Shown: piece after piece, positions 614 through 62,470 of the stretch
Layout: each line of letters opens with the position of its first letter
Position numbering within the stretch: the first letter of the stretch is position 1
NCBI GenBank assembly: GCA_965178125.1
Contig: OZ237771.1
Span: 62,001 to 126,000, forward strand
Reading direction: 5' to 3'
DNA from: Bilabrum cf. latius
Lineage: Eukaryota
DNA: 64,000 bases
Made by a program: the position numbers and the translations under genes
The notes under the pieces: model-generated
Database searches by the model: none
Told to the model about the DNA's origin: nothing
Seen by the model: only the letters and a program-made list of their open reading frames with translations

Positions 614-3431
614 TCATTTCTCCCTTCCAGACGGCAGCTACATCCGAACACCGCTTGCTGCGGATGGTGGCGGACTGGTGCCGGCGACCACCGCACCTTT
701 GCTCCCGGGATCGATCCCCACTGGCCTCGGGCTCCACCCCTTGACCTCGCCCTCCCTCGCGGTCCTCTGCCGACCGCTGGCGATCCCACCCGTCACTCCA
801 ATCACCGCAGCCTTGTCCCCCTGCAGCCCCCCCTCCTGCAGCCCGGCTCCGCTGGCAATGGGAGGCACACGCACACGCTGTCCAGCCACGACCCCCGCGG
901 CCGCCAGCTCCTCTTGCACGGCCCCCTATTGAATGAAGGCCTAGTCCGTGCGCACCCTATTTGATTTCGAGTCCCTTTGCTCCGCTGCCGGCCTCCATCC
1001 GCCCCTGCCACCTCCAGCAGCGGGCATCGCGGATCGAGGCCTCTGCCGCCGGACTCCCCTACTGCTGCTGCTTCGGCTGCTGTTGTCCGCGCTGCTGATC
1101 GCTTGGCCTACTTGCTTCCTCGATTGCATTGGTTTCTGGGCATACCGGCTCCCAGTCTTGCTCGTCCCACCATCACCCGTCCCCTGTCCCTCCAGTCTTG
1201 CCACAATCGAGGGCTCGGAGAGGGCATCGAGCCCGGCGGGCAGCAAAGGCTGCTTTTGTTCTGAGCGTCGGTGTGACGAGCCATCAATGCCAGAAACCAG
1301 CCCCGCCCCTCCTTCCCTATCCTGCTTCATCTTCATTCTGTCCCTCAGTGTCGCCCTCTCCTTCAGCCCCGGCCTGGGCGGACCGCTGAATGTCCCTCCC
1401 CCCTCGGTGGCTAGCCCCCCCTACAGCAGGTCCTTGCGCGCGGCGACAGCCCGGTTCCGCACGAGGCGGTGCATGGACGCAGTGAGCGGTCGTCGCCGCC
1501 TCTGGTTTGAATTCCGAGTCCCTTTCTGTTCCCCATGACTCGCGCTGCCGCTGCCCTGCCCTCCCTCGCCCAGCGGAGGCAGAGCGCCCGGCACAGCGGC
1601 GCCCCCTCTGCCAGAGAACAAGCCGCCCGATGCACTGTGACCGTGCTTACGCGGCATGGCGCTGTGGGGGCGCGTTCTGAGACCATGCCTATCCGTGGAG
1701 GCCAGCCGGGCTGGGGCCCCTGCTACTGCCCCTGCTCCCGCTCCCGCTCCGCCGCTGCTGGACAGGCCGTATCGCTGGTGATACCCATGCCCTGCCCCAC
1801 CGTGCAACTCACTCGTCGCACCAGTACTCTTCCGCGACCGTGGCATGGCAGAAGCTGGTCGATTCCGCGTTGCGCTACCGTGCAGTGCAGTTGCACTTCT
1901 CGACTGTGCCCTGTCCGACCCCACTCGTAGGCCAACTGCGGCCCTGCCTGCACCACCGTGCGATGCACCCGCACCCCACCCAAAGTGCGCACCACTCGCT
2001 GAGCTGCTTTGGCCAGGACTGATGGGCGACACAGCACCGGCGTGCAATGCACGCGTGCCCCATTCGGAGTCAGAATCGGCCCGGTTGCCTGCGGAGGGCG
2101 ATACGGCGGGAGGCGGCGGGCTGTGCCTATCGTGCTGCGGGTGCACTGCACGATCATGATCCTATTTCGCACCAGCTGCTTTCCAAGCCTCCAATCCATT
2201 GCCCTGCTGCTGCCAGTGGTGCACCTTCACCTCGGACCCCTCCACATTCCCTCCGCTCGCGATGCTCCTCGTGGCGTCGGTTGCACTCGTCACACGACCA
2301 TCCTTGGACTACATGTCTGTATCAGCATCTATATCTGGATCAGCCCCAGCCCCAGGCCCAGGCCCAGGCAGGCTGGGAGGCACGACCGCCCCGCGCCCAT
2401 CCCTGTCCCTGTCCCTGTCTCTGTCCTCGGGGTCCTGCTATCGATGGAGTTGGCGATGACCTGCACTCTCCTGGGACTGCCTGCGCCTGCGATCGCCCAC
2501 CCTTCCCCTGAGCGCCGCCTGCAGTTGTTCCCTGGCTATCTGCAGGTCTCTCCTGACCCTCCTCCTTTCGTCCTCGGACCGCTCTAGCCGGTGCACCAGG
2601 TCCTCCACCTGGGAGGCAGTGGCGGCCAGGCGGCTCCTGGCGTCCTTCAGCTGTGCCTGCAGCTCCGATGCAGTCAGGTCCTTGGCCCTCTCCTCCCGCA
2701 GGGTGGCCTCGACCGTCTCGGAGACGGCCCCTGCGAATGCTCGCTCAAGGGCTCGCGAGGCGGCCTGCAGCTCTTCTTGCATGGTGCCGCGCTCGTGCTC
2801 TCGACTGCGAGAGTTGCATTGTTTCCGGTACAAATGTATGGCAAGGCAAAACTTGGTCGAGTGTCGCATTTCGATGCAGATGGGGGGGGGTTCGATCGGT
2901 TGGCAAGGTGGTGAGTACCCTACGAAGCCTCTACTGCAAATTGTATTCGGCTGATGCTGCACTCCTTGGCACAGTATTAAAAATATCTGGACTAAACTGC
3001 GTGTGGCCCCGAGTATCATGCAGACGGACTCACTCTCTTGCCTGCGTCGCGATCTCGCCAGCTGCCTCCGCGAGACGATACGATAGACGACGATTCTCTT
3101 CCTCCAGCAGGTCCATACGGACCCGCACGGTTTTCATCTCCTCTTCAACTCTCTACCTTGCTCGATGGGCATCGCTCGCATCACGCTTCGCTTGCTCAAT
3201 TTCGTCTGCCATTGCCTCTTTTTCAACCAACTCCACTGCATTTCGGAGTGGATACCGCGGTGCTAGCAGTGCTGAAGTCGCATCATTCGTGGAACTCCAC
3301 TACTCTGGGCCAACCTCGTCCTGCAGCTCGGCTGACTTGCTGTCGTCGAGAGATTGGTGCTGCTACGAAGGTGGAGATTCCATGTTACTCGCAGAAATGA
3401 CGAGCTCCTCAGCTGGAACCGGAGACTACAT
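614..3431 (-). CDS. Hypothetical coiled-coil / low-complexity protein (intron-containing, needs TAG=Gln)
   Basis: ORFs 2438-3019, 1421-2146, 941-1336 and 638-919 are in one frame and each ends at TAG; first TGA after the last is at 614-616. Coiled-coil segments: MQEELQAASRALERAF..., EEEMKTVRVRMDLLEEENRRL. GTGAGT donor near 3034. The 5' exon structure is uncertain. Confidence 0.5.
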
Positions 3432-3697
3432 ACTGCGTCTTTAACAATCAGCGCAGCCCGGGTTCGTAGTGTGCCCCTTGGGCTCGGTTTGCTGTCACGC
3501 AATCGGAGTCGGGATTCGCCAACGGATGCCGAAAGGTGTGACGAGGCCCAGGGTGCCGTAGCGGTGTTGTGCAGTGAGCAGAGTTCGGTGAGGAGTGAAT
3601 GCACGCATCTGGCCTATACAACACGAAGACAGTAAACAACGACTACTACAATCACGCGTGGTAATCAGGATCACACGCCATAGATCCATTTCATCCC

Positions 3698-5267
3698 TCA
3701 GCTCACAGGAGCCCCACCCTCCCCTCCACCGGCACCGCTTCCACCACCGGGCAGCCCCGCCCGGAGCGCCCTAAACCGCGCCTCGAGCTCGTCGAACCCA
3801 GGATCCTCGCCAGGCGGCGGCCCACTGGTCGCACCACCGTGCGGCGCACCCATCCCCCCAAGTCCAGATGGGGGTGCCCCGGGGGCAGCCATGGAGCCCC
3901 CACCCTGGGGGCCAGCGCCCGCCTCCGAGCCGGACCCCGATCCAGGACCCCCGAACCCGGGCACAGACTTGCTATCCCTTCCGGCCATGCTTCCGGCCAT
4001 GCTTCCGCTCATGCTTCCGCTGTGCCCCGTGGCCCCATCGTAGTCTGGGGGTCCACCCGCAGGTGGCGGCCCCTGTCCCCCCATCCCCCCAGGGGGTCCC
4101 CCTGACCCCATGCCGGGGACGTACCCCGCTGCGGGGTACGTGCCCGAGCCTCCACCGGTGGATCCGGAGGACCCCACGCGCAGAGCAGCTGCCAGCGCAC
4201 CGGGGCCCGCCCCTGCCCCCGCCCCCGCTCCTGCCCCTCCCATGGCTCCCGGGCTGCCCCCAGCGCCGCTCCCTCCGCCCCCGGGGCCTATGGTCACAGT
4301 GACGGTCCCCTAACCCGGAAGTGTGGGGATCACCACGGTACCTCCCCCCGCCCCTCCGGTTGCTGGGCCAGATCCCCTTCCCCCTGTGCCCGCCACCGCC
4401 TCCGCCGAATCACCCATGAGACCAGCGCTGCCCTCTGGAGGCAGCAGCTCGTCCAGATCTACCGGCACCTTGTGGAGTGCCGCGATGGACCTGAGATACT
4501 CCCTCTTTACGGCGGGGCTCGGCGGTGCGATGCTCAGCCTGGCGCACACCTTGGCGTTCACGCAGGCTCCCTTCTCGCGGTTGTTTCTCTTGGCAATCGA
4601 GATGAACTCGTCTCCGAACTTGGCGCGGAGCTGCTCGACGACGGTCTTCAGCTCCTTAATGTGGCTTCTGCTCGCAGACCAGATGATCGTGTCGGTGGAT
4701 TCGCGCAGGTCAAGCGGGCAGTCGTCTTTTTTGCTCTCCTTAATGAGGTCTGCTCGCTCGTGCAAAAGATCGCACATCAACTGGATCACTCCATGGGCCT
4801 CGAGCTCTCGTTCTTTCCTGATGATGCTCTCAACCTTGATGTTTGCCTTGTCCAGCTGTCCGGGGTCGTCCGCAGCTTTTCCAAGCAGCTCTGCAACTGC
4901 GCGTTTCTCCATTCGCAATTCACCTTCTCGTTTATTGCGATACTGCGTTGGGAACGCCGAAATATTTGCAGTAGGATAGTCTCATGACTGGTTGTATGGG
5001 GTTCTTGCAGGCCGCCACGCAAATGCCGGATTTGCAAGGCAAAGAACAACGCTTTGGATGCAACGATACAAACAATACACTGTTGATGAGACTCAGTGCA
5101 CGAGTGTCCACACAAATATTTCGCAGAAAAGTGAAGCAAGACGGGTCCAACAAACCCGCTCGTACTCGCCACGGCATCCTCACGAGATCGATCCGCTTCT
5201 GTGCCATCTTCAGATGTGGCTTAAACTTAGAAATCTCAAACGATGGTCCAAATAATGCTGCAAGCAT
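3698..5267 (-). CDS. IST1: IST1 (ESCRT-III-associated regulator of Vps4)
   Basis: Exon 1 MLAALFGPSFEISKFKPHLKMAQKRIDL; intron ~5183-4943 (GTGAGG...ACGCAG); exon 2 YRNKREGELRMEKRAVAELL...KANIKVESII...CPLDLRESTDTIIWSA...ELKTVVEQLRAKFG. TAG at 4310 joins the Gly/Pro tail ending in the MIM1-like FDELEARFRAL. Stop TGA at 3698. Confidence 0.9.
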
Positions 5268-5508: not shown

Positions 5509-7001
5509 TCAGCCGAGCACAAGGCCGTACGAGGCAGCGGTGCCCCCTCCCGCGCCTCTGCTCTCCAAATGGGCCCGTGCAGCCGCACCTGCCTCACGCC
5601 TGGGATCGGGCGGCGGAACCACCCGGGGAACAGGCGCGGCGCCGCGCTCCACAGCTGCAAGTCGCGCCCATGCCCCCCCGCGCCGGAGAGAAGGATCCGG
5701 AGCTAATTTCTCCGCCATCGTCCCACCTCCCGCTACCTCACCCGCACCCCTTGCACTTGTCACACCCAGACCCATCCTGGCCCCTCGCACGGCCCGGGCC
5801 TGCGATCCCCCGCCCAGCCCACCTCGCACCGAGGAGGATCCGGCACCGGCACCGAAAGCGTCGCCAGCGCGCCCGCGCCCGTCTCCCCCGAACAATCCAC
5901 CCCTGGATCCAGGGAACAACGGCCCCCTGGTCTCCCTCAGGGTCACGGGATCGTAGCCCATGCGGCCCACGGCCTGCCCCTGCCGCTCCGTGGGTCTCGC
6001 CCTCGTAAGTGCACGCTACTCCTCCGCCGCCCTCCGCGCGTCTTCCTCCCGCCGCATCCTCCCCTCGGCTGCCAGCCTGGTGGGCCTCACCAGGGGTCTC
6101 CTCTCCCGCCCGTCGCACCTCTTTAACCGCTCCGAGTCCCTCACACTGTGGCCCACGATGTCGTAGGCTGCGCCCTCCCTGTCAAGGACACGCACCGGCG
6201 CGGCATGGGCCCGGCGCTCCCGTTGTTCCCTGGCAATCCTCGCCTCCGCCTCTGCCTCCTCCCTGTCCCTGCCCCTGTCCCTCCACGTCTGCGTGAGGGG
6301 GTCAAAGGCGCGCTGCCTCCAGAGCTTCTCGGCAGCTGATCGCAGCGCGGCTTCTCTATCCGCCGCCGCTTTCTCCTCGTGCTTCTCCGCGTATCTGTTG
6401 GTGAGCACGTCGAAATCTCGCTTGGGCGCGGTGGCCAGCCTGGCTTCCCTCTTCCTGGCCGCGTCTGTCTCCCTGGCCTGCAGCCGGGCTCGCTCCTCGG
6501 GGAGGGGCTCGTTCGTGACGATGTTGACGCCCGCCCGGGTGGAAAAGGTGTGTGTCGGGGGCTTGCGCGGCGGGGGTTCATCGTCGTCGATGCGGGCAGC
6601 GTGCGTGACGATGTCGAACCGCTGCTGCTGGCGGAGCGAGCGGTCGAATCCACGGTTTGCGCGGCGGGTTGCGCGGAGCGTTTCCTCCTGCCGCTTAGAT
6701 TCTTCCTTTGACTGATCTCTGAATCTTCCTAGCAGCGGATCGAACTCACGTTCCTCCCTCTTGATGGTTGCGTGGGAGCGTGCGGGTGGTCTGCTGTGCA
6801 CTGCTTCCAGCAGGTGGTCTGCCTGGACCTTCTCGGACTGCGAGCAGGGGAAACATCAGCAAATATAATTGCAGTGAGGTCAAATCAATACGTACGGCAG
6901 CATTGAAGGAGCGGACGAATACATACACGGTAGCTGCGGAGCATGTCGCCCCATGACGATGGCCCTTTGGATTTGTCACTCGGCCTTCGTCGTTTGCCCA
7001 T
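5509..7001 (-). CDS. Hypothetical protein with repeated [FY]D[IPV][VL]T motifs and coiled coils (possibly flagellar/cytoskeletal)
   Basis: ATG 7001; phase-0 intron ~6926-6838 (GTATGT...TCGCAG). ORFs 6016-6801 and 5509-5970 are joined by TAG at 6016. Motifs FDPLLG, FDIVTH, VNIVTN, FDVLTN, FDPLTQ, YDIVGH, YDPVT. Stop TGA. Confidence 0.65.
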
Positions 7002-7558
7002 GTTACGTTGAAAACCACAGCCGCAGGGAGGTACAGCTGTAATTGACTGCGCCAATTGAAGCGAAATTGGCATCCGCTCGCGAACGGAACTTTAGCAGCA
7101 CCGGTTGCAACCACCAATTTCACCGTGCGACCAAAAACGCCGACAACCCATCGAAGTGGAAACCGTTCTTCTCGCAGAATACGCAACCAATCAAGGCGTG
7201 TTTGTGTCAAATTTGCCTGGATGTAAGTTTCTGTTATGACGCTTTGTATTTGGTCTGCTGTGATTGTGATTTCATGGAATTGTCGTATAGCATGCCGAGT
7301 GTTTGGGCTTGATGGCGTTGCGTCAATTTGCTGGAGGTGACTTCTCGGTGGCCTGGATGCAGGGTAAACTGTGGTGATTTAACTAAGAGCCACAATCAAT
7401 CGGCCTCATCGCATGTCGCAAGCAGCTATCACGCGCCTGGAACTGCTCACTCTCGCAGCGGTTTCAAGACACCTAACGACGCAGTGTTTGGCGGAGTCCC
7501 CCAGAGGTCATCCCCATTAGACTAGCATATTAAGTACTTTAGTTATACAGGAGAGCAT

Positions 7559-9166
7559 ATGCGGACTTTTTCTCTCATCGCTGCGGCTGCAGCCGCCATG
7601 GGTTGGCAGGCTAGCGCCATGCGAGTGAATAGCACCTTTTGCGGCCTGGCGCTTGCGGAGTGCTGCACAAGGTACAATTCCACATCGGGGTCATTTATGG
7701 AAGAGCAGGACTGCACCTGCGTGGAGGAGGGCCAGGACCCGATGCTGTTCGAATCGGTGCTGCCGGGAGAGGCGAATCTGTACCACTGGCGCGTGCAGGA
7801 TTTCCAGGGCCTGGACGATGCGGATGGAGAAAGAAGACGCATTTCGTTTGACGTGGAAGTGTGCCAGGGCTCTGCCCACATCTATGTAAAGGCGCTAGAC
7901 CAGCCCCCGGTCCCCAGCGCGGAAGACCATCATTTCTCTGCGACCGAGCATTATGGTCCGAATTCCATCGCGGTGCTCGCCCTCAGGGGCCAGTTCTACG
8001 TGTCGGTGGTGGGCGCGGATGACGACGAGGACATCGTGGCAGCGGCGGAGACCATCCCTTCTCTCAACTACACCGCCCCCTCTGCCTCTGCCTCCAACGG
8101 TAGCAGCAGCAGCAGCAGCAACGGCGTGACGACTATCCCCTCCCTGCAGATGCCCAAGGAGCTGGCAGGGTACGGGGCCAGGCAGCCGCGGACCGTGTAC
8201 CACATGCGCGTGCACTTCGACGATGACGGGGAGTTCGGCCGGCCCTCCCGCCCCGCCCTAGGGAACGAAGGGAACCTGACGGTGACCAACCTGTTCACCG
8301 AGCAGCTGGTGCTGGACGACGGCACTCTCAGCATGTACGTGGGGCTGACCACCCCTCTGGCCCCCGGGTACCCTCCCGCCAACTCGACCGATGCTGCGAC
8401 CACGGACTACCCAGTGCTCGAGTATCGCGTGGTGGTCGCAAGGAATGCGACCCCCACCGACGAGGAGATGCAGGAGGCCCAGGAAGCCTTGGCCGCGGGA
8501 GACGTGCAGGCCGCTGCGGCTGCAACCGACGGTGCGCTGCACTGCGGCTCGGGCGCGCACCCTGGTGCCTGCGTGACCTCGTCCCCCTGCGGCGTGATGA
8601 TGAGCATGGTGCCCCGGGGTGACTGGGTTGCGCTCCCCTCGGATGGCGGGGAACACACTCTCATCGCCGACGGGCTGCTGCAGGACGAGCCGTACCGCTT
8701 CGCCGTGATCGTGCGAGACCCCTCGCTTCCTGCTTCTCAGCGAGACGACCCCCTGAGGATGTCCGTGTACACGGCCACCGAGGGAACACCCGAGTACTTC
8801 AAGGAAGAGAAGCTGCACTCCAACCAGACCATCTACATCATCCTCGGGTCCGTGGCTGGCGTCCTCCTCCTGGCACTCGTGGGCGTGCTCGTGTGTCGCT
8901 GGAGGCTGGCCGCCACCATGCGGGAGAAGCAGGCCGAGCGCGCACTCATCACATCGGAGGAGGTCAAGGACCTGAGGAACAAGGCCAGAGAGAGGCAGTC
9001 GAGACGCTCTCTGGGGGGCAGGTCCAGGGGAAGCAGGGGAAGCGGCGAGAGCAGGAGCCGGTCCCGGTCAGCGTCGGGGGAGGAGCCGGGAAGGGCCCTG
9101 TCACAGCCAGTGACCGCCCAACCGGCGCCCCAGGTGGCCGGGGCCAGCCAGGCGCCCATGCTGTGA
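7559..9166 (+). CDS. Type I membrane glycoprotein of unknown function
   Basis: 535-aa ORF with a signal peptide (MRTFSLIAAAAAAMGWQASA), a Cys- and N-glycosylation-site-rich ectodomain, a single TM helix (IYIILGSVAGVLLLALVGVLVC) and a basic tail. Stop TGA. Confidence 0.8.
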   Translation: MRTFSLIAAAAAAMGWQASAMRVNSTFCGLALAECCTRYNSTSGSFMEEQDCTCVEEGQDPMLFESVLPGEANLYHWRVQDFQGLDDADGERRRISFDVEVCQGSAHIYVKALDQPPVPSAEDHHFSATEHYGPNSIAVLALRGQFYVSVVGADDDEDIVAAAETIPSLNYTAPSASASNGSSSSSSNGVTTIPSLQMPKELAGYGARQPRTVYHMRVHFDDDGEFGRPSRPALGNEGNLTVTNLFTEQLVLDDGTLSMYVGLTTPLAPGYPPANSTDAATTDYPVLEYRVVVARNATPTDEEMQEAQEALAAGDVQAAAAATDGALHCGSGAHPGACVTSSPCGVMMSMVPRGDWVALPSDGGEHTLIADGLLQDEPYRFAVIVRDPSLPASQRDDPLRMSVYTATEGTPEYFKEEKLHSNQTIYIILGSVAGVLLLALVGVLVCRWRLAATMREKQAERALITSEEVKDLRNKARERQSRRSLGGRSRGSRGSGESRSRSRSASGEEPGRALSQPVTAQPAPQVAGASQAPML

Positions 9167-10291: not shown

Positions 10292-10775
10292 ATGGCTTCT
10301 GCATCAGATGATAGCGATTCTCCGTCGGCCCTGGAAGGCGCGCTGGCCAAGCCTGCGGACGACGTCTTGCAGGGCTCAGCGGACCACCTGTCTGTCCAGC
10401 TGCGGCAAACTAAGACGTCCCTGGAATCCTTGACAAAAGCATACGGCGTTATCAATGCACAGATGCAAGAGGTAAACGCGCGGTTGAAGGGGTACGGTGA
10501 ATTCCGAAAGCTTTCGGCAGAGCAATCTGCCCGGCTGAGCAAGCACACAGACACGCTTGATGCGTTTGATGCCTCGCTGGACGAGTGCGAGAAGGTAGCT
10601 GCAGGTCTGGAAGCCAACGTCATCTAGCTTGGTAAGGCACTTACATTTCTGTTCCGTGTTTCGGGGCAATTGTGTCCAGTATCCTGTCTCGAACCAACCG
10701 CTTTGCTCTGCTTTGCTGTCCGCAGAAGCTGCTTATCGGCGCCTGCCGGCAGAGATAACTCGCGGAACAGCTTAA
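10292..10775 (+). CDS. BLOC1S2: BLOC-1 subunit 2-like coiled-coil protein
   Basis: ATG 10292; TAG at 10625 read through; intron 10632-10725 (GTAAGG...CCGCAG) gives ...LDAFDASLDECEKVAAGLEANVIQLEAAYRRL..., resembling the BLOC1S2 C-terminus. Stop TAA 10773-10775. Confidence 0.6.
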
Positions 10776-44310: not shown

Positions 44311-45158
44311 GAAACTGACATTGATTTGTACGTTACATCGAATCAGTTCTAGAACCTTCACGCAAATCAATCCCAGTTTCTACAGTTCCGGTCTTACTGA
44401 TTGTAACCCCAGACCTGCTAAGACTCCCCACGCCGGGACTCGACCTAGAGTCGGCAGTCCCCCGAAAGAAAAACTAAAAAAAAAACAATCTGAGCTAGCC
44501 CACCCCCATGATCGCTCCTATCACCTACCTCCTCGGCTAGGGTCTGCGTTGTGACAGAGGCTGGCACGGTCGTCACCCCGGGTTGGCCAGCTACCATTGA
44601 GGGCCAATCGCCCCACCACCCCAGTGCCACGTATAACTGATTTACCGCTCTTCTGCCCCACTGTGGAGGCATTATAAGAGCGGTGGATAGCCGCGCAAAA
44701 TACGTCCCACCCATGCTATGGCATTGGCTCGCTGCCGCCGCCGCTGCTCCAGACTCTCCTCCATCTTCTTCCGGTTTGGGTCACTAATCGGGTGGTGAAT
44801 CGATTGTAACCATTCCAGGCAATACCTGAGACTAAACTGGTCCCTACCGTAAGATAATCTATCGTTTCAATAAGTTTTTTTTGTAAACAACCCACTTTAA
44901 GAGCAGAGTCCGTCGGCATACTGCTTGTCATCCCCCCAACTGATGGTTATCTTTTTTTGCGAAAGACATGAGGTGCGCCGACAGTGGTACTAACGTATGG
45001 CTAAGTGATCTCACTAAAGTATTTCATGAGCGACACCTGTCATCTTCGCAGGAAATGGCAGACAGAGTGAGGACTACTTTACTAATATTGTCGGCATTTG
45101 TAATTGAAAAAATCGCCGACCTACCGCATTGTAGTTCAAGCCATTAGTTTTTTGATCC

Positions 45159-53000: not shown

Positions 53001-56000
53001 GCACCAGTCGATTCGCGTACAGACCCCGACGCCTGCGAATTGGACGATTCAAAGTTGATGTCGCGGATCCTTGGGCCCGACTGGTCCACATTGTCAGTGT
53101 CGATACCGCCTGTCTTTGCCACGAGTTCAGCGCCGGCAAACACCCGATGCTTTTGCACGATTGACTGCTGTTTCGGTGCGCACTGGCTATTGCGTGTGGC
53201 TCGACGTTGCACTGAACTTCGCCTCTGCTCCTGCGTGGGCGTCCCAGTTGAAGAAGATACAACGGCCATGGGTGCCTTGAATCGAGCACTGACTGCAGGT
53301 AGAGCTCCGTACTAGGTCTAGCGCGATAACGATTCGCCATCCGGGCGTGTGCTGCTGCTGCTGCTGCTGGCCCGGTGGTCGCTTGGAGAAGCCTCCAGTG
53401 GCTGGACCCGTGTGTACGAGTCCGCATCGCTATCGTGCACTGCACCTGCTTGGCCCTTTTGACTGGTGCTCCTACCCCTGCGACGAGTTGAAGCACCGCT
53501 ATGGCCTCGGTCTCGGCCTCGTACGCTCGCTGATCCCGAAGAGCCCCGGCTCCCCGCGCTACGGTCGCGCGTCCCGCGACTCGATCGCTTGCGGAGCATC
53601 ATCCACGCCGCCCCGCTGCTAACATTCGGAGAAGATTGTGCCCTGAGCAGTGCTTCACGCGCTGCATCTTGCGACCATGCGTTCATTACAGTGAGATCCA
53701 CGCCGCGACCGCTGGCCCATGCCCTAAAGGCAGTGGCGGTAGTCCGCAGCAGCACGTGAACCAGGTCGCAAGGGCGCGGCACCACGGTCAGCTTGCCCGC
53801 CTCGATCTTCTGCAGGGCCGATACGTCGTCCAGCACGGAGATCATCGAATCCGCTGCGGCCCCCATGGAGGGCAGCACCTCGTCCAGCTCCGATCGGATG
53901 CCTCGCAGGTCGGCGATGCACCTGCGCAGCATGTTCAGCTTGTCTTCACCAATGGCGAGCACCGTGGGCTAAGTGCTCAGCAGCCCGTGACTGGGCCGAG
54001 ACGCGCGCAATGCAGCGATGGGCAATGCCGTGGAGGACAGCTGCATTTGCGATTGCCCACGCGATGTCTGGCCACCGGTTGGCAACTTGATGGTACCGTT
54101 TGATCGCGCGTTGCCCCCCTACTTCTTTTGTTTTCTCTTTACTACACGCCGCTTCTTCGGCGTGCTAGCATTAGGCAATTCCATGTCCTTGGCTTGCTTG
54201 GCTGCTGCATCAATTGGTGGATCAACGGCTAGACTATCCGCTTGGGCAAGCACTGTCGCAGTCCGTGCATCAGCAGTAGCCTTCATTGCCTAGATATCCT
54301 CATCAATAAGCCCCACTACATTCGATGGCACACCCACGTCCTGGGCCATTGCCTTGAGTGCGCTGAGCACCCCCTTCAGTCTGTTCTCTGCATCCTCCAC
54401 CATGCGCCGCTGGTCCTGGATCTCGGCCAGCCCGAGCACGATCGAATTCAGGGGCTGCCGCACCTCGTGGCTCGTGTATCGGATGCGGGACACCAGCACC
54501 TGCCGCCTAAGCTTGGCCGAGTGCGAGACCAGCATCATGGTGGCCTGTAGTGACACATGACGATACAGCAGCAGCGCCACGGCCAGCTTGATACCCATGT
54601 CAAGCAGAATTTTTGTGCACATGATCACGACTGAAAATTCAACGTCGTCGAGCTCCTTCTGGTCGATACCGAACGCGTGATGCTGCGTGCGAGCAATGGT
54701 TTGAAGCGCTTGCCGGAAGTCGCTAGAGAAGTAGCCTTGCATGTAGGCGCGGGACATGTGCAGTGCCATCGCCATCTCTGGGTTCGAATGAGAGGTCACT
54801 GCGGCGAAATCGTCCCAAGATGAGCAGTCCACACCTAACGCCCGAAAGCTCGCGAGCAATTGCGACGCGCTGGCAGCATCAAACCTGCTCGAATTTGCAA
54901 TAGAGCCACCTGCGTTTGCGGTGCCGTTCAATTGGCCGGTACCTAGCCCCACCGAGCTGACATTGAGCACGATTCTGTTATTCTCAACGAATTCAAGGAA
55001 GACGAAGTCCGGGGCTACGCAAAGAAGGCCTCGCGTACTAGGCCCGAGAATCATCAGAGGGTCAATCCCGAAGTTCACACCGGGCTCTGCGGTAGATGAT
55101 TCCTGATTCTCGTTAGAGAAGAGCCCTGATTCTATGACTGCATCACGTAGTGCCAGTTCTGCGATCAAGTAGCCTTGTAGCAGGTTCACTGGTTGCCCAG
55201 TCATTAGCGGCATGATCCTGGGACACTTTTCCTTTAGGACTGGCCTCGGAAAAGCGTAGGCCATCTGCATGATAGCACCACATACTGCTAGTGCTTTGAG
55301 CACCGATGCAACCGCCACGCTGCTGCCGGCCACGTACTTGGTCACCTCCTGCTCCGGCTCCCAGGGCTTGAGCCGCTTAACAACGCTGGTCTAGTCGTGG
55401 ACTCTGCTAGGTTCGCCACGCTCCCCGCCTTCCCCTCCCTGTCCCAGTCTAAATGGAGCAGATACATTGCCCTGGCTACAACAGGACGGGCACTAGGCAC
55501 AGCAGACTGTCGCTGAATGTGGCGAGTCACACCGTGCAAGTTCGCAACCACACATTTCCGTAAAACCGTTCTATCCACCTGCAACCGGGATTCCCAGCAC
55601 AATCAACACAATTGCAAGTAATGTGATGACAATTGAGGCTGCGAGCAACCCCGGCAAAGATCGCGCTGCAAACGTCTGGTCTACTCCTGCCTCTCCGAAC
55701 AAGTTGCGACGGACCACTTCTAAATAGGCAACGTTCATCACCTTTGCAAGCCTAAATGGGCTTTCTGATGGAGCATTGGCAGATCGATCGTAGATACTGT
55801 GCAGTTCACGGGCAAAAGAAGACGTCAGACTTTCTAGCCTGCCTAGCAGGGCCAATAAATTACCTTTGGTCTCCGCCTGTGCCAGGACGATGGAACGGTT
55901 GAACGAAATAACAGATCGAAACGCAGCCAAGTCTGCGACTACGCCAAGCTGTTCCCGTCTTGCAGCGTCCACAGAGCAGAATAGCTCGGCATTCCCCTGC

Positions 56001-57024
56001 CAGCGCTTGATAGAGTCTACTCCAACGAGAGCTCGTCCTGGGTAGCTGATCCAGTCGCCGTTGTTTCTGTCGAGCTCCATCTCGATCCGACTCAAATCCA
56101 TTCCGATTCCAGAGGCTGCAAATTCGTTGAGATTAAGCGCGGGTGCAAGTCTTTTCCTAGAAATGGTGCTCAACGCTTCTTCCCCCGCCCGTAAGCGCTG
56201 GGAGGCTGTCGCGGCATTTGAGCTCAAGCTCCCGATTACAAGCAAGAAGCTCAGACCCAGCAGTGTCCACGCGCTACTAAGGTTACCATTGGTGCGATTT
56301 GAACACGGACACAGCTAGAGGGAGTGTGCTGGATTTGTCGGTGCCCCCTATGGCTGTTCTTGATCCGAACGCTAGGGCGCGGCCGCCGTCTTCGGCACAG
56401 GCACACTCGGCGCCGAGGCTTGCCCAGTGACAAATATCAGCATGCTTGCCACGGCTCCGAGCCAGACGGTCCTGAGTGGCTGCGTTGTGATGGGAATAAG
56501 CCCACGGGGCAAAATGAGAGCGTCCGGCGCCGTCAGGTCGTCATGGAGCGAGTCGAGCGGCGGTAACCCCAGAGCTAGCAGGCCGTACTCGGTTGCGGTC
56601 GGCGCCAAGGAGACCGCAGCCATGAAACTCCCGCTGTGGGGTACGGATAGATAAGTACCAGGATGCAAACATACTTTATGCTATCATTTAGGAGCGAGAT
56701 CTGCATCGTGCGGTGCAAGGGATCCTTCACAGAGGGGGCCACCTCATTCAAGTCAAATCCTCACATTTGCACCAATCGTCTCATCTGGTCACTAAATGGC
56801 TTCTATTTGTCCACTTGAGATGCTGTTGTAGTGGTACCATCAGAAGCACACCCTGCTGAACACCATTTGCGCCTGTTCGGATTGGCGACGGTGGCGGCAA
56901 GATCGGGTGGGCACTCCCCAGTGCTATCACCAGATGTTGAGCTCATCTGTCCGATCACTAGAAGCAATATTAGGACGCAAATAATTAGTATCGTACAGAT
57001 AAGGGATAATCCGTTGAATACCAC
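50018..57024 (-). CDS. Multi-TM hybrid sensor histidine kinase with C-terminal receiver domain (HK2)
   Basis: Same-frame ORFs from 56635 to TGA 50018 joined by TAG. H, N, G1, F and G2 boxes match HK1. Receiver LVLVVDDSRSNRRML...LVLLDFSMPRMDG...GVTGNA...MKP. Intron 56765-56636 is conserved with HK1. Further TM-coding exons probably extend to ~57724. Confidence 0.9.
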
Positions 57025-58365: not shown

Positions 58366-60840
58366 TCAGTCGCTGTCGCTGCCAAGGAAGGCCCCGCCGG
58401 GGACAGCCCGCCCCGGGACCTCTCTCATCACACCAATTATCCCACCGTAGCGGTCGTCACCATAGGCACCCTTCAACTGTGCCAGCTCCATCTCCGACGC
58501 ACCTGCTGCCGCAGAATCTCCGACACCTAAAGTGTGACGAGTGCGCCCACCGCTTTCCTCGCTGCTGCCGCTGCCCCACCCGCCGCCGCCGCGATCCACC
58601 CTGTACTCGTCATCCCTCGCGTGCTCATCACCGTCCTCACTCCCATAGCCATCCTCGTCGCTCGGCAGCTCGGTGGAGTCTGACGAGTGCGACCCTCTCC
58701 TGCCCCTGCCACCCCAATGCCTCCTCCCACCCCCGGCACCTCCACCACCACCACCAACATAGGCACCATTGCCACCTGCCATCAAGTCCCCCCGGTCCTC
58801 CTCGTCCAGACCAAACTCGGCCTCCAGCGCAGTGCCGTTATACTGCCCATTCCCCTGTCTCTGCCCCAGCCCCAGCCCCAGCCCACCGCGCGCGGCCGAT
58901 GCACGAGCCCCGGAGGGATACCCGCCCCTCGCACCACTTTGACCACCATGCGCCGCAATTCGATGCACTGGTAAATCGCCTAGTGCACCCTCCTCCGCCG
59001 CTTGTTCCCTGGCGATCCGATCCCTCTCCTCTGCCCGCATGGACTCCTCCTCTAGCCTCTCTCGCTCTTCCAGGGTCCACCACCCGGCGGGCGAATGTTC
59101 GCGAAGGTTCGGTAGCAGGGAAGGAACGTTCATGGATAGCATCGCCTGGAGGTTCCGCTTCCACCCACGGTCGTAGGGGTTGTCCAGCTCCGCCGCTCTC
59201 CTCCTGGTGGCCCTGCCTATATTGCAGGCGCAATCCAGGGCGTCTTCCCTCTCCTGCTACAGCCGATTGTGAGCCTCCTCGCCGATGGTCTGACGCTCTG
59301 CCGCCTCCTCCACCTCGGGTGGGTCGCGGTTGGCGCCGTCTCCCCACCTTCGGTCGAAGTGCGCCTTGATATACTCGTTCGTCGTCATGTTGGATACCAC
59401 CAGCTGCAGGTGCATGCCAGACATGCCGCCCACGCAGCATGTGATGCACAAGCCGTACACGCCCAGCAGTGCACTCGTCACACGAACAATGATGCCGGGC
59501 AAGTGAGCGTGCACAGCTCCGAATGACCATGGGCCTGGGCTGGTGCTAGATCCAGATTGGGTGCTTGCCGGCGCGCTGGCGGCTGCAGGGCTAGGGCGTG
59601 GGCTAGGGCCTGGGCTTGGGCTTGGGCTGGTTGACGGAGAGGACGAGGACGACGAGGATCTGCTCCCCTCATTTTGTTTCTCCTTCTCTTCTTTTAACTC
59701 CTACGTTCGCCTATCGGTACTGTCTTGCCATGTCCCCAGTGCATTGTCGCGGCAGTCTTCGCCCGCACCACAAGAGCGCTGCAGAAGCCCCCCTGCGAGT
59801 TGCCTGGCAGCAGAAGCACTCGCATCCCTTCCTATGTGTTCCCTATCCCCGCATTCGAAAGCTCCCTGCGGGTTCCCCTGAATTATCGGCCGGATGCAAT
59901 CGCTTTCCCAATCACCCCCCTTGCCCATCAGCCCGCCCAGCAGGAACCGACCCCCCCTCGTCCTGGTCCCGGTCCCTCCTCGGCTACTGCGCCGCGTGGG
60001 CCTGTAGTCTCCCATGTCGTCAACCATGCTAAACGCACGGAACCCACTCGTCACACCAACCAGCACGGCCAGCACGGTGGTGAAGAGGAGGAAGCTCACG
60101 AAGAACGGATAATTTCTCTCGGCCACGTCATTGGACACCCAGGGGCAGTAGTGGTCGAACCGCTTCACGCACGTGTTCGTGGTTCTCGAGTGCTTGGCCC
60201 GGGGCGGTCTCCATGTGTTGCACGTGTCGCAGTACTTGTAATTGAGAGGAGACTCTGGTGCGAGCAAGTACCAGCTGGCCGGGGGAGGCGGCGGCCTGAG
60301 CTCTGCCGGGCGCGGAGGCACTATCCCGGGATCAATAGAACTGGTTATTACCAGGCTGCCCATGCTACCCACGAATGCGATAGCAAACGCGCAACCGAGC
60401 AAAGTGAAAAAGCCGCTGCTCAGCGCAGGAAGCACAATCGCGCAGAACGCCAGGCTCGGGAATATGATCAGACAGGCCGCAAATATGCATAGGCCCGGTT
60501 TTGGGCCACAGTTAAGCCTGCCACCGCACGCAAACCACCGCTTTCCCGGAAATTTCAGATATCTCGGCACGTATCTCCCGTCTGCTGGGGTAGCACGACG
60601 AGCTTCATCGGCACTTCCGTTCATCGGCAGATGCTATCCTACGTTTGCAGCACGTTCATTGATTTGTGACTCATTTCTGTGCCCGTTCAGCAGGGTAGCT
60701 TCGTCATGAGACACGCTTGACGATGTCTCGCCATCCGAGTCCTTGCCGTGACCTGCAGCAGATAGGTACTAGGTCTATGAATGGCGTACTCTAAATGTAT
60801 GCGCTGAACGCGCGACCTAGGCAGTCTCTATCTCCTCCAT
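58366..60840 (-). CDS. DHHC-family palmitoyltransferase, DHYC variant
   Basis: FPGKRWFACGGRLNCGP N-terminal motif; DPGIVP; KYCDTCNTWRPPRAKHSRTTNTCVKRFDHYCPWVSNDVAERNYPFF; NMTTNE motif reached only through TAG at 59701. TAG 59257 also read through; TGA 58366. Start uncertain (60840 or 60624). Confidence 0.9.
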
Positions 60841-61055
60841 GAAAGCAAACACGAGGCTTGCGCCTCCAATTTAGGAATTGAAGTTTCCTCATAGCGCGTT
60901 CGTGCAATGCATTTTGATGTAACGTTTGAAATGCGGTATCTCCCGTTGCCTTCCGATTGCGCTGGGGCCAAGAACACTCGACAATTAATAGCTACGTCGT
61001 TATTTGCAAAGCTTTTTGAGATCCGTTTATCAATTTTCCATTAGATAATTGTCAC

Positions 61056-62470
61056 ATGGCATCGGTTGGATACCTGAAAGATGTTTTACACGGAACAAAT
61101 AAGAGAACTGGCTGGCTGGAGAATTTGCCGCTGCCAGTCCGGTCGCTGATAGCTGGGGCCTTCTCAGGGCTTGTGGAGACAAGCCTGACTCATCCTCTGG
61201 ATTTGAGTGAGAAGATTGGAATGTTTCTTTACGGATGATGTGGTCAATTGCTTGCATAGAAGCACATTAATGGTGTTCCGGAAGGTCTATCATCCGGTGT
61301 CCAACCGGACAGTTTGGACAAATGTCGTGCTCCATAGAGCTTCATGCTCACTTCCGGGCTAGAATCAGAATCACTAAGATCGCCATGTACACATGCAGGA
61401 GTTGCGTATTGATACAATTCGCAGCACAGCTGTTACGAAAGGGCTAAGATGAGTCTCGCAGCATGCGTCACACCGTCATACCCAAGTGCCAGTCACTTAT
61501 TGCCAACTTGTTCGCAGTTAAAACCAGGTATCAGCGATGTAGAAGTGCAGGTCAGTCCGCAACCTTGCTTGGAGTTGCTCGAGACGCTGCCAAGGACGGC
61601 CCGCTAACGCTATACCGCGGGTTCTTGCCCAAGATTGCGGGAGTTGTGCCAATGCGAGTGACCTTCTGGGGAGCCCAATCGGCTGCACTCAGATTCTTCG
61701 AGTCAAACGATAGAGGCTTGCCTCAGATCGCGAGAACGTTGGCTGTGGGTGTGTTCGCAGGCACTGCCCAGTCCCTTGTGGATGCACCGATGGACTACTG
61801 CAAGGTCAGGCAGATGACCTCCACGGATGCAAAACCCTCTGGAGTTGCGACAATATTCAGAGATGTGATATCACAGGGCAAGATACCGGGGGCTGTCCCA
61901 ACACTGGCCCGGAATGTGACGTTTGCGATGGTCTTCTCGACGGCTCTCCACTACGGCGCCGCGGACAGCGACGGCAGCGGAACCGTGTTCCTGCGCGGCG
62001 CCGCAGCGGGGGCCGCGGCGAGCATGGCCTCGCAGCCATTCGACACGTGGAAGACTATGAGCCAGGTTAAGGGGGCCAGGGAACAAGGCTTCTTCGAGCT
62101 GGTGGGTGGCCTAAACGGGAGGGGAATGGCGGGCAAGGCCAATGGCGGGGCAGCCGCTGCCGCCTCATACACTGGGTCGGTCAGCTGGTGGAGGTGTAGT
62201 AGTTCCAGATTGTTACCGCCAGCGGTGTCTGTGCTGATGAGCGGGTGGCAGGCCCGAGCAGTGCTAGCGACTACCAACATGGCTGTCGGCGCGCTGGCGT
62301 TCACAACAGCGATGGACGTGTTGACTCCCTCCAGAAAACAGGAGCAGTGGTCATACCATAGGAGAAATAGGAGGGGCTAGCAGGCAGAAGCTGTGCAGGG
62401 CGATCTGTCGCGTGCATCTGAGTTTCGTGGTGTGGGTGGGGTGCTGATGGGAAGCAGCAGCGGTGACTGA
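61056..62470 (+). CDS. Mitochondrial carrier family (SLC25) protein
   Basis: Three PxDxxK signatures: HPLDL|IKTRYQ across intron 61207-61517, APMDYCKVRQM and QPFDTWKTMSQ. With TAG 62378 read as Gln, the first stop is TGA 62468-62470. Confidence 0.88.

What the first reader, a model, noticed from the sequence alone, without database searches (positions are those of the whole stretch)
614..62470. Non-standard nuclear genetic code: UAG = Gln while UAA and UGA remain stops
Seen: nearly every long gene is broken in frame at TAG, and the genes I could trace end at TGA (e.g. 3698, 11471, 23804, 49520, 50018, 58366) or TAA (10775, 38203, 39051). The amino acid is fixed by (i) GT48 motifs IDCN*D (13598) and GRLS*RFF (13391), where FKS/callose synthases have IDxNQD and Q-R; (ii) paralog swaps: HK1 TAG at 30410 vs HK2 CAG at 54341 inside a near-identical DNA block, HK1 ARA*HAAFG (30068) vs HK2 ARTQHHAFG, and reciprocally HK2 IPVAGG*NG (55571) vs HK1 IPVAGGQDG (CAA at 29159). 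Established: UAA and UAG are usually reassigned together (ciliate code); uncoupled UAG=Gln nuclear codes are rare (e.g. the fornicate Iotanema). Inference: this GC-rich protist may be an independent origin, and standard-code annotation would fragment most of its genes.
Basis: partly seen in the sequence, partly recalled or inferred. Interest (0 to 1): 0.95.

Follow-up and report, generated by a model that had tools for sequence, protein, structure and literature searches.

The report
Nuclear code with TAG as glutamine
This GC-rich eukaryotic DNA reads the stop codon TAG as an amino acid, most likely glutamine, while TGA and TAA still end genes; this is a rare variant of the genetic code, and ordinary annotation chops such genes into pieces.

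Summary
Under the standard code the longest frame in the window is 602 aa. Reading TAG as sense opens frames of 2609, 2581, 2221 and 1454 aa; reading TAA as sense gains nothing, and TGA reaches only 947 aa. All cited coordinates are correct.

RNA-like runs from two studies show spliced GT..AG introns and keep TAG in the message. One TAG lies inside a BLOC1_2 domain that continues in frame across a confirmed intron to a TAA.

A small Codetta-style decoder got 59 of 61 standard codons right and assigns TAG to Gln, 8.1 log units ahead of Ser over 10 columns. Conserved columns show Q in 139/145, 85/86 and 80/127 sequences.

TAA is never in frame in 12,036 codons, against 24-44 expected if it were TAG's synonym.

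An independent metagenome contig (L001, 54% GC) shows the same signature.

The code itself is known (Iotanema, some ciliates). This genome fits none of those, so I rate it a new member of a known kind.

Still open: the organism's identity, tRNA-Gln(CUA), eRF1, and whether TAG sometimes still terminates (a TAG lies within the last 10 codons of 4 of 15 ORFs).

The parts
11471..19216 (-). GT48 (1,3-beta-glucan synthase family) gene. Frame of 2581 codons with 29 in-frame TAGs, ending in TGA.
   Evidence: (PF02364, E 1.3e-36).
13598..13600 (-). In-frame TAG in the motif IDCN[TAG]D.
   Evidence: Yeast FKS1 has Q here (IDANQD). The family column has Q in 80 of 127 and M in 45.
13391..13393 (-). In-frame TAG in GRLS[TAG]RFF.
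   Evidence: The family column has Q in 139 of 145. Yeast FKS1 has A.
27983..35812 (+). Histidine kinase paralog HK1. Frame of 2609 codons with 20 TAGs, ending in TAA. It has HATPase_c but no receiver domain.
50018..56683 (-). Hybrid histidine kinase paralog HK2. Frame of 2221 codons with 20 TAGs, ending in TGA directly after the receiver domain.
30410..30412 (+). HK1 TAG facing CAG at 54341 in HK2, inside a well-aligned block.
30068..30070 (+). HK1 TAG facing CAG at 54683 in HK2.
55571..55573 (-). HK2 TAG facing CAA at 29159 in HK1.
10292..10631 (+). BLOC1S2-like gene, coding exon 1. In-frame TAG at 10625-10627, two codons before the splice donor.
   Evidence: (PF10046, weak, E 0.0046).
10632..10725 (+). 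GT..AG intron of 94 nt, skipped in contigs of X5, X6 and X7.
   Evidence: table 5.
10726..10775 (+). BLOC1S2-like exon 2. The frame continues (...EAAYRRL...) to TAA at 10773-10775.
5509..6855 (-). Expressed gene of unknown family. In-frame TAG at 6016; intron at 6838-6926 (CT..AC on the + strand).
3698..4981 (-). IST1 homolog, main exon. 1 TAG (4310), ends in TGA. An upstream intron at 4943-5183 was seen in X7.
   Evidence: (PF03398, E 1.2e-33).
45156..49520 (+). CLU/TPR-like gene. 1454 codons with 12 TAGs, ends in TGA.
58366..60870 (-). DHHC palmitoyltransferase. 6 TAGs in the frame, ends in TGA.
   Evidence: PF01529, E 4.1e-27.
36044..39051 (+). DIRS-like retroelement. An RT ORF (36044-38203) overlaps a tyrosine-recombinase ORF (37765-39051). 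They carry 3 and 2 in-frame TAGs, and both end in TAA.
   Evidence: RVT_1; Phage_integrase.
41158..43095 (-). B-lectin repeat protein. 2 TAGs, one of them 3 codons before the TGA.
61448..62470 (+). Mitochondrial carrier family gene. 1 TAG 30 codons before the TGA.
614..3133 (-). Low-complexity ORF of 839 codons with 7 TAGs, ends in TGA.
7526..9166 (+). Highly expressed membrane-protein gene with no TAG in its coding part. A 5' intron at 7223-7458 (GT..AG) is present. Ends in TGA.

Best explanation
The window is nuclear DNA of a GC-rich (about 59%), intron-poor eukaryote. Its cytoplasmic translation reads UAG as a sense codon, most likely glutamine. UGA (the main stop) and UAA still terminate.

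Shown here: TAG is in frame in nearly all long genes; it is kept in spliced mRNA; it falls on Gln-dominated conserved columns; TAA and TGA never occur in frame and close every gene.

Inferred from established knowledge of such codes (PMC5304391, section 9), not shown here: a tRNA-Gln with anticodon CUA, derived from tRNA-Gln(CUG), decodes UAG but cannot pair with UAA. An eRF1 with weakened recognition of G at the third stop-codon position leaves UAA and UGA as the only efficient terminators.

The trait is shared by at least one distant environmental relative (L001). It is therefore probably a property of a clade rather than of one strain.
For: (1) ORF lengths. Only TAG read-through opens long frames: 602 aa becomes 2609, 2581, 2221 and 1454 aa. 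TAA read-through gives no gain, and TGA read-through reaches at most 947 aa.

(2) Domain continuity. Pfam domains lie on both sides of TAGs in single frames: GT48, HATPase_c plus Response_reg, IST1, DHHC.

(3) RNA. Runs X5, X6 and X7 (two studies) have very uneven depth (0.17 to 320). They skip four introns with GT..AG ends, or CT..AC for minus-strand genes. No base difference was reported at any TAG. Of the 39 in-frame TAGs in the laid stretch, 17 lie in listed RNA-like contig pieces. Two of them (6016 and 10625) are covered in all three runs. The spliced BLOC1S2-like message reads ...ANVI[TAG]L/EAAYRRL... and runs to TAA at 10773-10775.

(4) Amino acid identity. Family columns at TAG positions: GT48 has Q in 139/145 and in 80/127; L001's CBP/p300 protein has Q in 85/86 and in 33/87; yeast FKS1 has Q in IDANQD. 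The decoder, run on the same alignments, got 59 of 61 standard codons right. It gave TAG=Q with a margin of 8.1 log-likelihood units over S. Random sets of non-Gln columns decode as Q in 12 of 2000 trials. In the paralogs, 3 of the 7 TAGs with local identity of 0.40 or more face CAG, CAG and CAA.

(5) TAA and TGA as stops. Nine ORFs with 12,036 codons contain 0 in-frame TAA and 0 in-frame TGA, against 93 TAG. If TAA were TAG's synonymous partner, 24.5-43.9 would be expected. The off-frame TAA counts are 41 and 59. L001 has 0 TAA in 4,068 codons against 26.9 expected. Of 15 ORFs, 12 end in TGA and 3 in TAA; the spliced BLOC1S2-like gene adds a fourth TAA.

(6) A second organism. On L001 (54% GC) the longest ORF goes from 682 aa to 2065 and 2003 aa only when TAG is read through. 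None of the other 67 GT48 loci shows this.

(7) Fragmented relatives. Public protein fragments of relatives start or stop at TAG positions. P0003 ends at query position 1040, just before the window's TAG at 1041. P0078 ends at 558, beside the Q column at 560. P0001 ends exactly where L001 has a TAG.
Against: The assignment to Gln rests on few columns. Ten were usable, and 7 of them come from L001 rather than from the window's organism. Q is the commonest residue in only 4 of the 10; the other six are led by F, L, T/S, S, H and V. True Gln codons sampled ten at a time decode as Q in only 1688 of 2000 trials.

Opposite the window's TAGs, the closest relatives carry L and K (P0003, 79% identical) and E (P0022, 86%), so 0 of 3 are Q. 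P0001 has A, A, Q, Q, Y, and P0002 has Y.

In the paralog alignment only 3 of 30 aligned TAGs face Gln codons. The other 27 face S, A, D, M and others, mostly in poorly aligned low-complexity sequence.

The zero count of in-frame TAA and TGA is partly circular, because the frames are delimited by those codons. Its weight comes from the length of the frames.

The tool itself marks X5, the only run covering the GT48 TAGs, as 'RNA? (probably DNA)'. All the runs are contigs, not reads.

No tRNA gene was found in the window or on L001. No eRF1, no whole genome and no peptide data are available.

A TAG lies within the last 10 codons of 4 of 15 ORFs (P about 0.008, noticed after the fact). That leaves room for TAG still acting as a terminator at some gene ends.
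Confidence: 0.85

Rival explanations
1. Ambiguous code. UAG is read as Gln inside genes but still terminates translation at some gene ends, depending on context, as UAR and UGA do in Condylostoma or karyorelict ciliates.
For: Four of 15 ORFs have a TAG 3-9 codons before the TGA/TAA that closes the frame: B-lectin 3, RT 5, ORF 614 8, CLU 9. The probability is about 0.008 under uniform placement, and control slots further upstream hold 1, 1, 0, 0 and 2. The mitochondrial-carrier ORF has a TAG 30 codons before its TGA, after the last carrier repeat.
Against: The pattern was noticed after the fact in 15 ORFs. It is equally explained by fossil ancestral TAG stops that are now read through to a nearby back-up stop. 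In the BLOC1S2-like gene, a TAG 18 codons before the TAA is followed by further in-frame coding sequence (...EAAYRRL...) across a confirmed intron, so nearness to the 3' end alone does not make TAG a stop. If TAG were the true stop and the next TGA/TAA came by chance, most distances should be much longer than 10 codons.
Confidence: 0.1
2. Both UAR codons encode Gln (the ciliate, Hexamita or Amoeboaphelidium type, table 6), and TAA is simply too rare in GC-rich DNA to appear in 64 kb.
For: This is by far the commonest kind of stop-to-Gln code (PMC5304391 abstract and Background). TAA is the rarest of the three triplets in the window: 263 + 239 occurrences on the two strands, against 560 + 533 for TAG.
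Against: In-frame TAA is 0 of 12,036 codons, where 24.5-43.9 are expected from the A-ending share of CAR, GAR, AAR and TTR codons. L001 has 0 of 4,068 against 26.9 expected. Reading TAA through fuses no frames: 2609 becomes 2644 and 719 becomes 811. TAA closes 4 genes in the window and the GT48 gene on L001. That GT48 ends 25 residues after the last aligned block, where the window's ortholog ends with TGA 28 residues after it.
Confidence: 0.03
3. UAG is a sense codon for another amino acid: Ser as reported for Scotinosphaera, Leu as in the rhizarian exLh, or Glu, Lys or Tyr as in some ciliates.
For: Six of the 10 usable columns are not Gln-dominated. Close relatives show L, K and E opposite the window's TAGs. 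S is the commonest residue opposite TAG in the paralog alignment.
Against: Log-likelihoods are Q -27.1, S -35.2, L -37.6, G -38.4. The three most conserved columns are 96%, 99% and 63% Q. The Ser partners lie in Ser-rich, poorly aligned stretches with local identity of 0.10-0.35. L, K and E are single-base neighbours of TAG (TTG, AAG, GAG) in fast-evolving segments.
Confidence: 0.04
4. The TAGs are real stops. On this reading the genes are pseudogenes, or the TAGs are removed from the message by splicing or editing, or they are assembly errors.
For: None beyond the default expectation under the standard code.
Against: Frames of 2200-2600 codons lack any TAA or TGA. The same sequence is held by four DNA-type runs and three RNA-like runs from other studies without differences at TAGs. 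The introns that exist are ordinary GT..AG and do not coincide with TAGs. An independent contig shows the same pattern.
Confidence: 0.01

Closest known systems
Iotanema spirale (Fornicata) nuclear code: UAG=Gln, with UAA and UGA as stops (PMC5304391; abstract and sections 7 and 9 read)
   Same: The codon table is the same: in-frame UAG on Gln-dominated columns, no in-frame UAA or UGA, and UAG not seen as a clear terminator. The expected mechanism is also the same: a tRNA-Gln(CUA) plus an altered eRF1.
   Different: Iotanema is an anaerobic gut flagellate known from a transcriptome. UAA is its main stop (104 of 119 termini). Here TGA ends 12 of 15 ORFs, the DNA is 59% GC, and a mitochondrial carrier and a CLU homolog are encoded. 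The identity of the organism was not established, so a relationship cannot be formally excluded.
Ciliates with UAG-only reassignment to Gln: Protocruzia tuzeti and two phyllopharyngean lineages (PMC11687900; Discussion passages read)
   Same: UAG is read as Gln while UAA is kept as a stop. The code has arisen repeatedly and independently.
   Different: The window is a 64-kb multi-gene stretch at 59% GC, with introns of 89-241 nt and a DIRS-like retroelement. From my own knowledge rather than from any call, that is unlike the AT-rich, often gene-sized macronuclear DNA of ciliates. No ciliate marker was tested.
UAR=Gln codes (table 6): ciliates, hexamitin diplomonads, Ulvophyceae, Streblomastix, Amoeboaphelidium protococcarum
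   Same: A stop codon is reassigned to Gln, presumably through mutated tRNA-Gln genes.
   Different: TAA is not in frame here. Amoeboaphelidium genomes are about 40% GC (PMC10608142, Table 1 passage), against 59% here.
Other UAG-only reassignments: UAG=Leu in the rhizarian exLh (PMC5304391) and UAG=Ser in Scotinosphaera (cited in PMC11687900; original paper not seen)
   Same: UAG is uncoupled from UAA.
   Different: Leu and Ser score 10.5 and 8.1 log units below Gln in the decoder.
Code 15 in crAss-like and Lak phages (PMC9523058; search listing and abstract only)
   Same: TAG is read as Gln.
   Different: Those are phage genomes that use suppressor tRNAs in bacteria. This window has spliceosomal introns and eukaryotic gene families.

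Membership tests
UAG=Gln / UAA,UGA=stop nuclear code (Iotanema type; nominal NCBI table 15) | In-frame UAG inside conserved protein-coding genes. | tested here: met
   There are 93 in-frame TAGs in 12,036 codons of nine domain- or RNA-supported ORFs. Pfam domains lie on both sides of TAGs.
UAG=Gln / UAA,UGA=stop nuclear code (Iotanema type; nominal NCBI table 15) | UAG is retained in mature mRNA, neither spliced out nor edited. | tested here: met
   Contigs of RNA-like runs keep 17 of the 39 in-frame TAGs in the laid stretch, 2 of them in three runs from two studies. Introns are removed elsewhere. Caveat: these are contigs, not raw reads, and the tool marks X5 as possibly DNA.
UAG=Gln / UAA,UGA=stop nuclear code (Iotanema type; nominal NCBI table 15) | UAG aligns with Gln at conserved positions. 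| tested here: met
   Q in 139/145, 85/86, 80/127 and 33/87 sequences. The decoder gives Q with a margin of 8.1 over 10 columns, 7 of them from relative L001.
UAG=Gln / UAA,UGA=stop nuclear code (Iotanema type; nominal NCBI table 15) | UAA and UGA are absent from reading frames and used as terminators. | tested here: met
   0 TAA and 0 TGA in frame. Stops are 12 TGA and 3 TAA in 15 ORFs, plus TAA in the spliced BLOC1S2-like gene.
UAG=Gln / UAA,UGA=stop nuclear code (Iotanema type; nominal NCBI table 15) | UAG is never used as a terminator. | tested here: inconclusive
   A TAG lies within the last 10 codons of 4 of 15 ORFs. True C-termini cannot be fixed without relatives or 3'-end data.
UAG=Gln / UAA,UGA=stop nuclear code (Iotanema type; nominal NCBI table 15) | A tRNA-Gln with anticodon CUA is present. 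| not testable with these tools
   No tRNA was found in the window, on L001 or by Rfam. No whole genome is held.
UAG=Gln / UAA,UGA=stop nuclear code (Iotanema type; nominal NCBI table 15) | eRF1 N-domain changes (GTS, NIKS, YxCxxxF motifs). | not testable with these tools
   eRF1 is not in the window and no genome is held.
UAR=Gln code (table 6) | In-frame UAA as well as UAG. | tested here: not met
   0 of 12,036 and 0 of 4,068 codons, against 24.5-43.9 and 26.9 expected.
Ambiguous stop/sense codes (Condylostoma type) | The same codon is sense internally and a stop near the 3' end. | tested here: inconclusive
   TAGs are enriched near the 3' end, but a TAG 18 codons before a stop is read as sense in the BLOC1S2-like gene.
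UAG=Ser or UAG=Leu codes | UAG aligns with Ser or Leu at conserved positions. | tested here: not met
   Log-likelihoods are S -35.2 and L -37.6, against Q -27.1.

The most novel reading that the evidence does not exclude
The window's organism, a sister genome known only from chopped protein fragments (79-95% identical), and more distant environmental relatives down to 41% GT48 identity (L001) form a previously unrecognised, GC-rich, non-ciliate, non-fornicate eukaryotic clade. On this reading the clade reassigned UAG to Gln long ago and independently of all published cases. The TAGs sitting 3-9 codons before today's TGA/TAA stops would then be fossil ancestral terminators, showing how termination was re-established after the change.
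Probability: 0.4. Interest if true: 0.8.

Novelty: new member of a known kind. Interest (0 to 1): 0.62.

Why it matters
Changes in the meaning of UAG alone are among the rarest nuclear code variants. As of December 2024, UAG=Gln with UAA kept as a stop was listed only for Iotanema, Protocruzia and two phyllopharyngean lineages (PMC11687900).

A case in a GC-rich genome, backed by assembled genomic DNA and RNA data, would have three uses:
- It would add a probable further origin.
- It would allow the predicted tRNA-Gln(CUA) and eRF1 changes to be read directly from a genome. Pánek et al. (PMC5304391, section 9) could not do this for Iotanema.
- It would test the idea that such reassignments need AT-biased genomes in which the codon first becomes rare.

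On the practical side, standard-code gene callers have already split these genes into 96-135-aa pieces in public protein collections. Any annotation, BUSCO score or phylogenomic use of this genome and its environmental relatives therefore needs a TAG=Gln table.

Tried and rejected
- Whole genome: none is held, so no genome-wide codon inference, tRNA search or eRF1 search was possible.
- Word-indexed protein searches found nothing for the GT48 C-terminal part or for IST1.
- The first metagenome scan with the window's GT48 found no relative. The second, with P0001, gave L001 and 67 standard-code loci.
- The look-up of sequencing runs listed no holder on record as RNA; X5-X7 are RNA only by guess and by behaviour. 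Parts of the laid stretch have no RNA-like cover, for example GT48 13862-16441 and the IST1 TAG at 4310; nothing is concluded from these gaps.
- Rfam found no RNA family in the window.
- Aphelid hypothesis (Amoeboaphelidium, published as UAR=Gln): dropped, because its genomes are about 40% GC.
- Taxon placement failed. The atlas calls gave no usable taxa, and cluster look-ups gave no names. A careful tree timed out. The FastTree of CBP/p300 puts L001 on a long branch with unnamed sequences, outside the oomycete, diatom and streptophyte clades. The oomycete-first ranking of named hits is therefore only a weak hint.
- L001's GT48 TAGs fall almost entirely in unconserved stretches and add little on amino-acid identity.
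- Literature: 8 searches found no report of a GC-rich, non-ciliate UAG=Gln genome. The library holds open-access papers and bioRxiv only. Mikhailov et al. 2022 was not held. Supplements, for example the additional files of PMC5304391, were not opened.

Full report
**What is in the sequence**

The window is 59% GC and carries no tRNA or other Rfam-recognised RNA gene.

Stop-to-stop frames depend sharply on how TAG is read:

| Reading | Longest frames (aa) | aa in frames of 500 aa or more |
|---|---|---|
| Standard code | 602 | 1,651 |
| TAG as sense | 2609, 2581, 2221, 1454, 938, 839, 834, 719... | 14,118 |
| TAA as sense | 602 | 1,651 |
| TGA as sense | 947 | 7,243 |

The small TGA gain is what GC-rich DNA would give anyway. 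Reading TAA and TAG together lengthens the TAG-only frames only trivially (2609 becomes 2644) and fuses nothing.

That includes the three paralog swaps: TAG 30410 against CAG 54341, TAG 30068 against CAG 54683, and TAG 55571 against CAA 29159. The TAA at 10773-10775 is also confirmed.

**What the frames encode**
- A very large GT48 glucan synthase (11471-19216, minus strand, 29 TAGs).
- Two paralogous histidine kinases (27983-35812 and 50018-56683, 20 TAGs each).
- A CLU/TPR protein.
- IST1.
- A DHHC palmitoyltransferase.
- A B-lectin repeat protein.
- A mitochondrial carrier.
- A BLOC1S2-like protein (weak Pfam match).
- A DIRS-like retroelement with RT and tyrosine-recombinase ORFs.

These are eukaryotic nuclear gene families. 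The retroelement's ORFs also carry in-frame TAGs.

**Is TAG in the message?**

One search for sequencing runs found four DNA-type holders of one sample and three holders from two other studies that are RNA by guess. I laid the three RNA-like runs and one DNA holder on window 600-20599.

The three RNA-like runs behave like RNA:
- Depth ranges from 0.17 in the intergenic bin to about 320.
- Adapter sequence occurs at contig ends.
- Four stretches are skipped with GT..AG ends, or CT..AC for minus-strand genes: 4943-5183, 6838-6926, 7223-7458 and 10632-10725.

The DNA run covers all of these stretches. The only base difference listed is C>G at 1090 in one low-depth contig.

Of the 39 in-frame TAGs in the ORFs of the laid stretch, 17 lie inside listed RNA-like pieces. 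X5 covers all 17. X6 and X7 each cover the same two, at 6016 and 10625.

The clearest case is the BLOC1S2-like gene. The TAG at 10625 sits two codons before the donor site. The 94-nt intron is removed in all three runs. The frame then continues (...ANVI-TAG-L/EAAYRRL...) for 17 more codons to TAA.

Caveats: these are assembled contigs, not reads. The tool also marks X5, the only run covering the GT48 gene, as possibly DNA, although X5 too contains the spliced forms.

**Which amino acid?**

I masked TAG as X in all searches.

*GT48.* An exhaustive HMMER search with the C-terminal 1199 residues found 647 relatives, and I aligned the best 150. The two TAGs in conserved columns show Q in 80/127 (M in 45) and Q in 139/145. 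A third TAG lies in a variable hydrophobic column led by F (38/95). Solved FKS1 structures have Q at the first position and A at the second.

*A second organism.* A metagenome contig, L001, encodes the closest substantial relative of the window's GT48 (41% identity). It shows the same code signature. Its longest frame is 682 aa under the standard code, under TAA read-through and under TGA read-through. With TAG read through, the frames reach 2065 and 2003 aa, ending in TGA and TAA. None of the other 67 GT48 loci fetched shows this.

L001's second gene is a CBP/p300-type acetyltransferase. With 87 homologs, its TAG columns show Q in 85/86 and in 33/87. Four further usable columns are led by T/S, S, H and V.

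*Decoder.* To weigh all this without picking columns, I decoded every codon from the same three alignments with one likelihood rule. It got 59 of 61 standard codons right; ATC and ATG came out as Leu. For TAG it gave Gln at -27.1, then Ser at -35.2 and Leu at -37.6. Random sets of ten non-Gln columns decode as Gln in 12 of 2000 trials. True Gln codons taken ten at a time decode as Gln in 1688 of 2000.

*Evidence that does not point to Gln.*
- Only 3 of the 10 usable columns are from the window's own organism.
- Q leads in only 4 of the 10 columns.
- The closest relatives carry L, K and E opposite three of the window's TAGs.
- Only 3 of 30 aligned paralog positions face Gln codons, or 3 of the 7 with local identity of at least 0.40.

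These are unconserved positions, and L, K and E are single-base neighbours of TAG. They do not point to another assignment, but they show how thin the direct evidence is.

**Are TAA and TGA stops?**

In nine ORFs supported by domains, paralogy or RNA (12,036 codons) there are 93 in-frame TAG, 0 TAA and 0 TGA. The two off-frames hold 41 and 59 TAA, and 219 and 244 TGA.

If TAA were used as TAG's synonym, with the A-ending share seen in the CAR, GAR, AAR and TTR pairs (0.21-0.32), 24.5-43.9 in-frame TAA would be expected. L001 gives 0 of 4,068 codons against 26.9 expected.

The zero itself is by construction, since the frames end at these codons. The real evidence is that frames of 1,400-2,600 codons exist at all.

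Of 15 ORFs, 12 end in TGA and 3 in TAA, and the spliced BLOC1S2-like gene adds a fourth TAA. HK2's TGA follows directly on its receiver domain. The window's GT48 ends in TGA 28 residues after the last block it shares with L001's ortholog, and that ortholog ends in TAA 25 residues after the same block.

If TAG encodes Gln, it makes up 17.5% of Gln codons.

**An unresolved point**

Four of 15 ORFs have a TAG 3-9 codons before the closing TGA/TAA (P about 0.008 under uniform placement; five control slots hold 0-2). In addition, 7 of 15 have a second in-frame TGA/TAA within 10 codons after the stop.

I noticed this after the fact. There are two possible readings:
- TAG still terminates at some gene ends (an ambiguous code).
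- These are ancestral TAG stops that are now read through to a nearby back-up stop.

The BLOC1S2-like gene shows that a TAG 18 codons from the end can be sense. I cannot decide between the two readings with contigs alone.

**Relatives and annotation**

Public protein collections hold short pieces of close relatives of this GT48: P0004 (95% identical), P0022 (86%), P0003 (79%), P0041 (69%) and P0078 (50%). All are unnamed and come from environmental or run assemblies.

Their boundaries match TAG positions:
- P0003 stops one residue before the window's TAG at query position 1041.
- P0078 stops beside the 96%-Gln column.
- P0041 and P0002/P0153 begin at the first Met after that column.
- P0001 ends exactly where L001 has a TAG.

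This is what standard-code gene calling does to such genes. It also suggests several related genomes with the same code, although I could check the DNA only for L001.

**Comparison with what is known**

The codon table (UAG=Gln, with UAA and UGA as stops) is published for these lineages:
- Iotanema spirale (PMC5304391; abstract and sections 7 and 9 read).
- Protocruzia tuzeti and two phyllopharyngean ciliate lineages (PMC11687900; Discussion passages read).

The kind of code is therefore known. This genome does not look like any of those:
- Iotanema ends 104 of 119 genes with UAA, whereas TGA dominates here in 59% GC DNA.
- The long multi-gene stretch, with 89-241-nt introns and a DIRS-like element, is unlike ciliate macronuclear DNA. 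That comparison rests on my own knowledge, not on a call.
- Amoeboaphelidium, published as UAR=Gln, has about 40% GC (PMC10608142, Table 1 passage).

Eight literature searches found no report that fits. The library is open-access only, and I could not name the organism, so prior publication cannot be excluded.

Placement attempts failed. In a FastTree of CBP/p300, L001 sits on a long branch with unnamed sequences, outside the oomycete, diatom and streptophyte groups.

**Mechanism**

Shown: TAG is translated, and TAA and TGA are not.

Inferred from established work on such codes (PMC5304391, section 9): a tRNA-Gln(CUA), one mutation away from tRNA-Gln(CUG), reads UAG and cannot read UAA. A change in the eRF1 N-domain lowers recognition of UAG.

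Neither component could be looked for. No genome is held, and neither the window nor L001 carries a tRNA gene.

**Verdict**

This is a new member of a known, rare kind of genetic code.

Interest is moderate to high for three reasons: the lineage appears new for this code, it is GC-rich, and genomic DNA and RNA data exist that would let the tRNA and eRF1 basis be read directly. The code itself is already described. The amino-acid assignment for this organism rests on few columns. The claim of an independent origin is untested.

Noticed in passing
window 638, 38186, 41167, 49491 (TAGs); ORF ends at 614, 38203, 41158, 49520: A TAG lies 3-9 codons before the closing TGA/TAA in 4 of 15 ORFs (P about 0.008; control slots hold 0-2). 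These could be fossil ancestral stops, or a sign that TAG still terminates at some gene ends.
   Followed up: partly
window, the 10 codons after the stops of IST1, 7526-9166, GT48, 23841-26657, HK1, CLU and DHHC: Seven of 15 ORFs have a second in-frame TGA or TAA within 10 codons after the stop; in GT48 it is the very next codon. This may reflect selection for back-up stops, or AT-richer 3' UTRs.
   Followed up: no
window 35812-39700: A DIRS-like retroelement lies directly 3' of HK1. It has an RT ORF (36044-38203), an overlapping tyrosine-recombinase ORF (37765-39051), and a repeated segment coding the same ~40 residues at 38837-39259 and 39317-39682. HK1 lacks the receiver domain that its paralog HK2 has, so the insertion may have truncated HK1.
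   Followed up: partly
window 27983-35812 vs 50018-56683: The two histidine-kinase genes share blocks of near-identical protein and DNA separated by unrelated low-complexity sequence (867 identities in 2004 aligned columns). This suggests patchy gene conversion or recent partial duplication.
   Followed up: no
window 1949-2400, 4205-4207, 6217-6290: Many contig joints and loose ends in both DNA and RNA-like runs link these GC-rich low-complexity stretches to each other and to sequence outside the stretch. They look like dispersed simple repeats that break assemblies (tables 5 and 7).
   Followed up: no
window 23841-24700, 21819-21940, 60634-60870: The 5' parts of several TAG-read frames are dense in TAG (for example 9 in about 290 codons). 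They are probably untranslated leaders, so the number of truly coding TAGs is lower than the raw frame counts.
   Followed up: no
L001 6872-13069: The relative's contig carries a 2065-codon CBP/p300-type acetyltransferase (Bromodomain, PHD, KAT11, ZZ) with 22 in-frame TAGs next to its GT48 gene. In a FastTree it groups only with unnamed sequences.
   Followed up: partly
window 7526-9166: This is the most highly covered gene in the RNA-like runs. It encodes a signal-peptide and single-pass membrane protein with no Pfam family. Its nearest atlas clusters are unnamed 1700-1870-aa proteins and, weakly, fibronectin-III/NDNF-like families.
   Followed up: no
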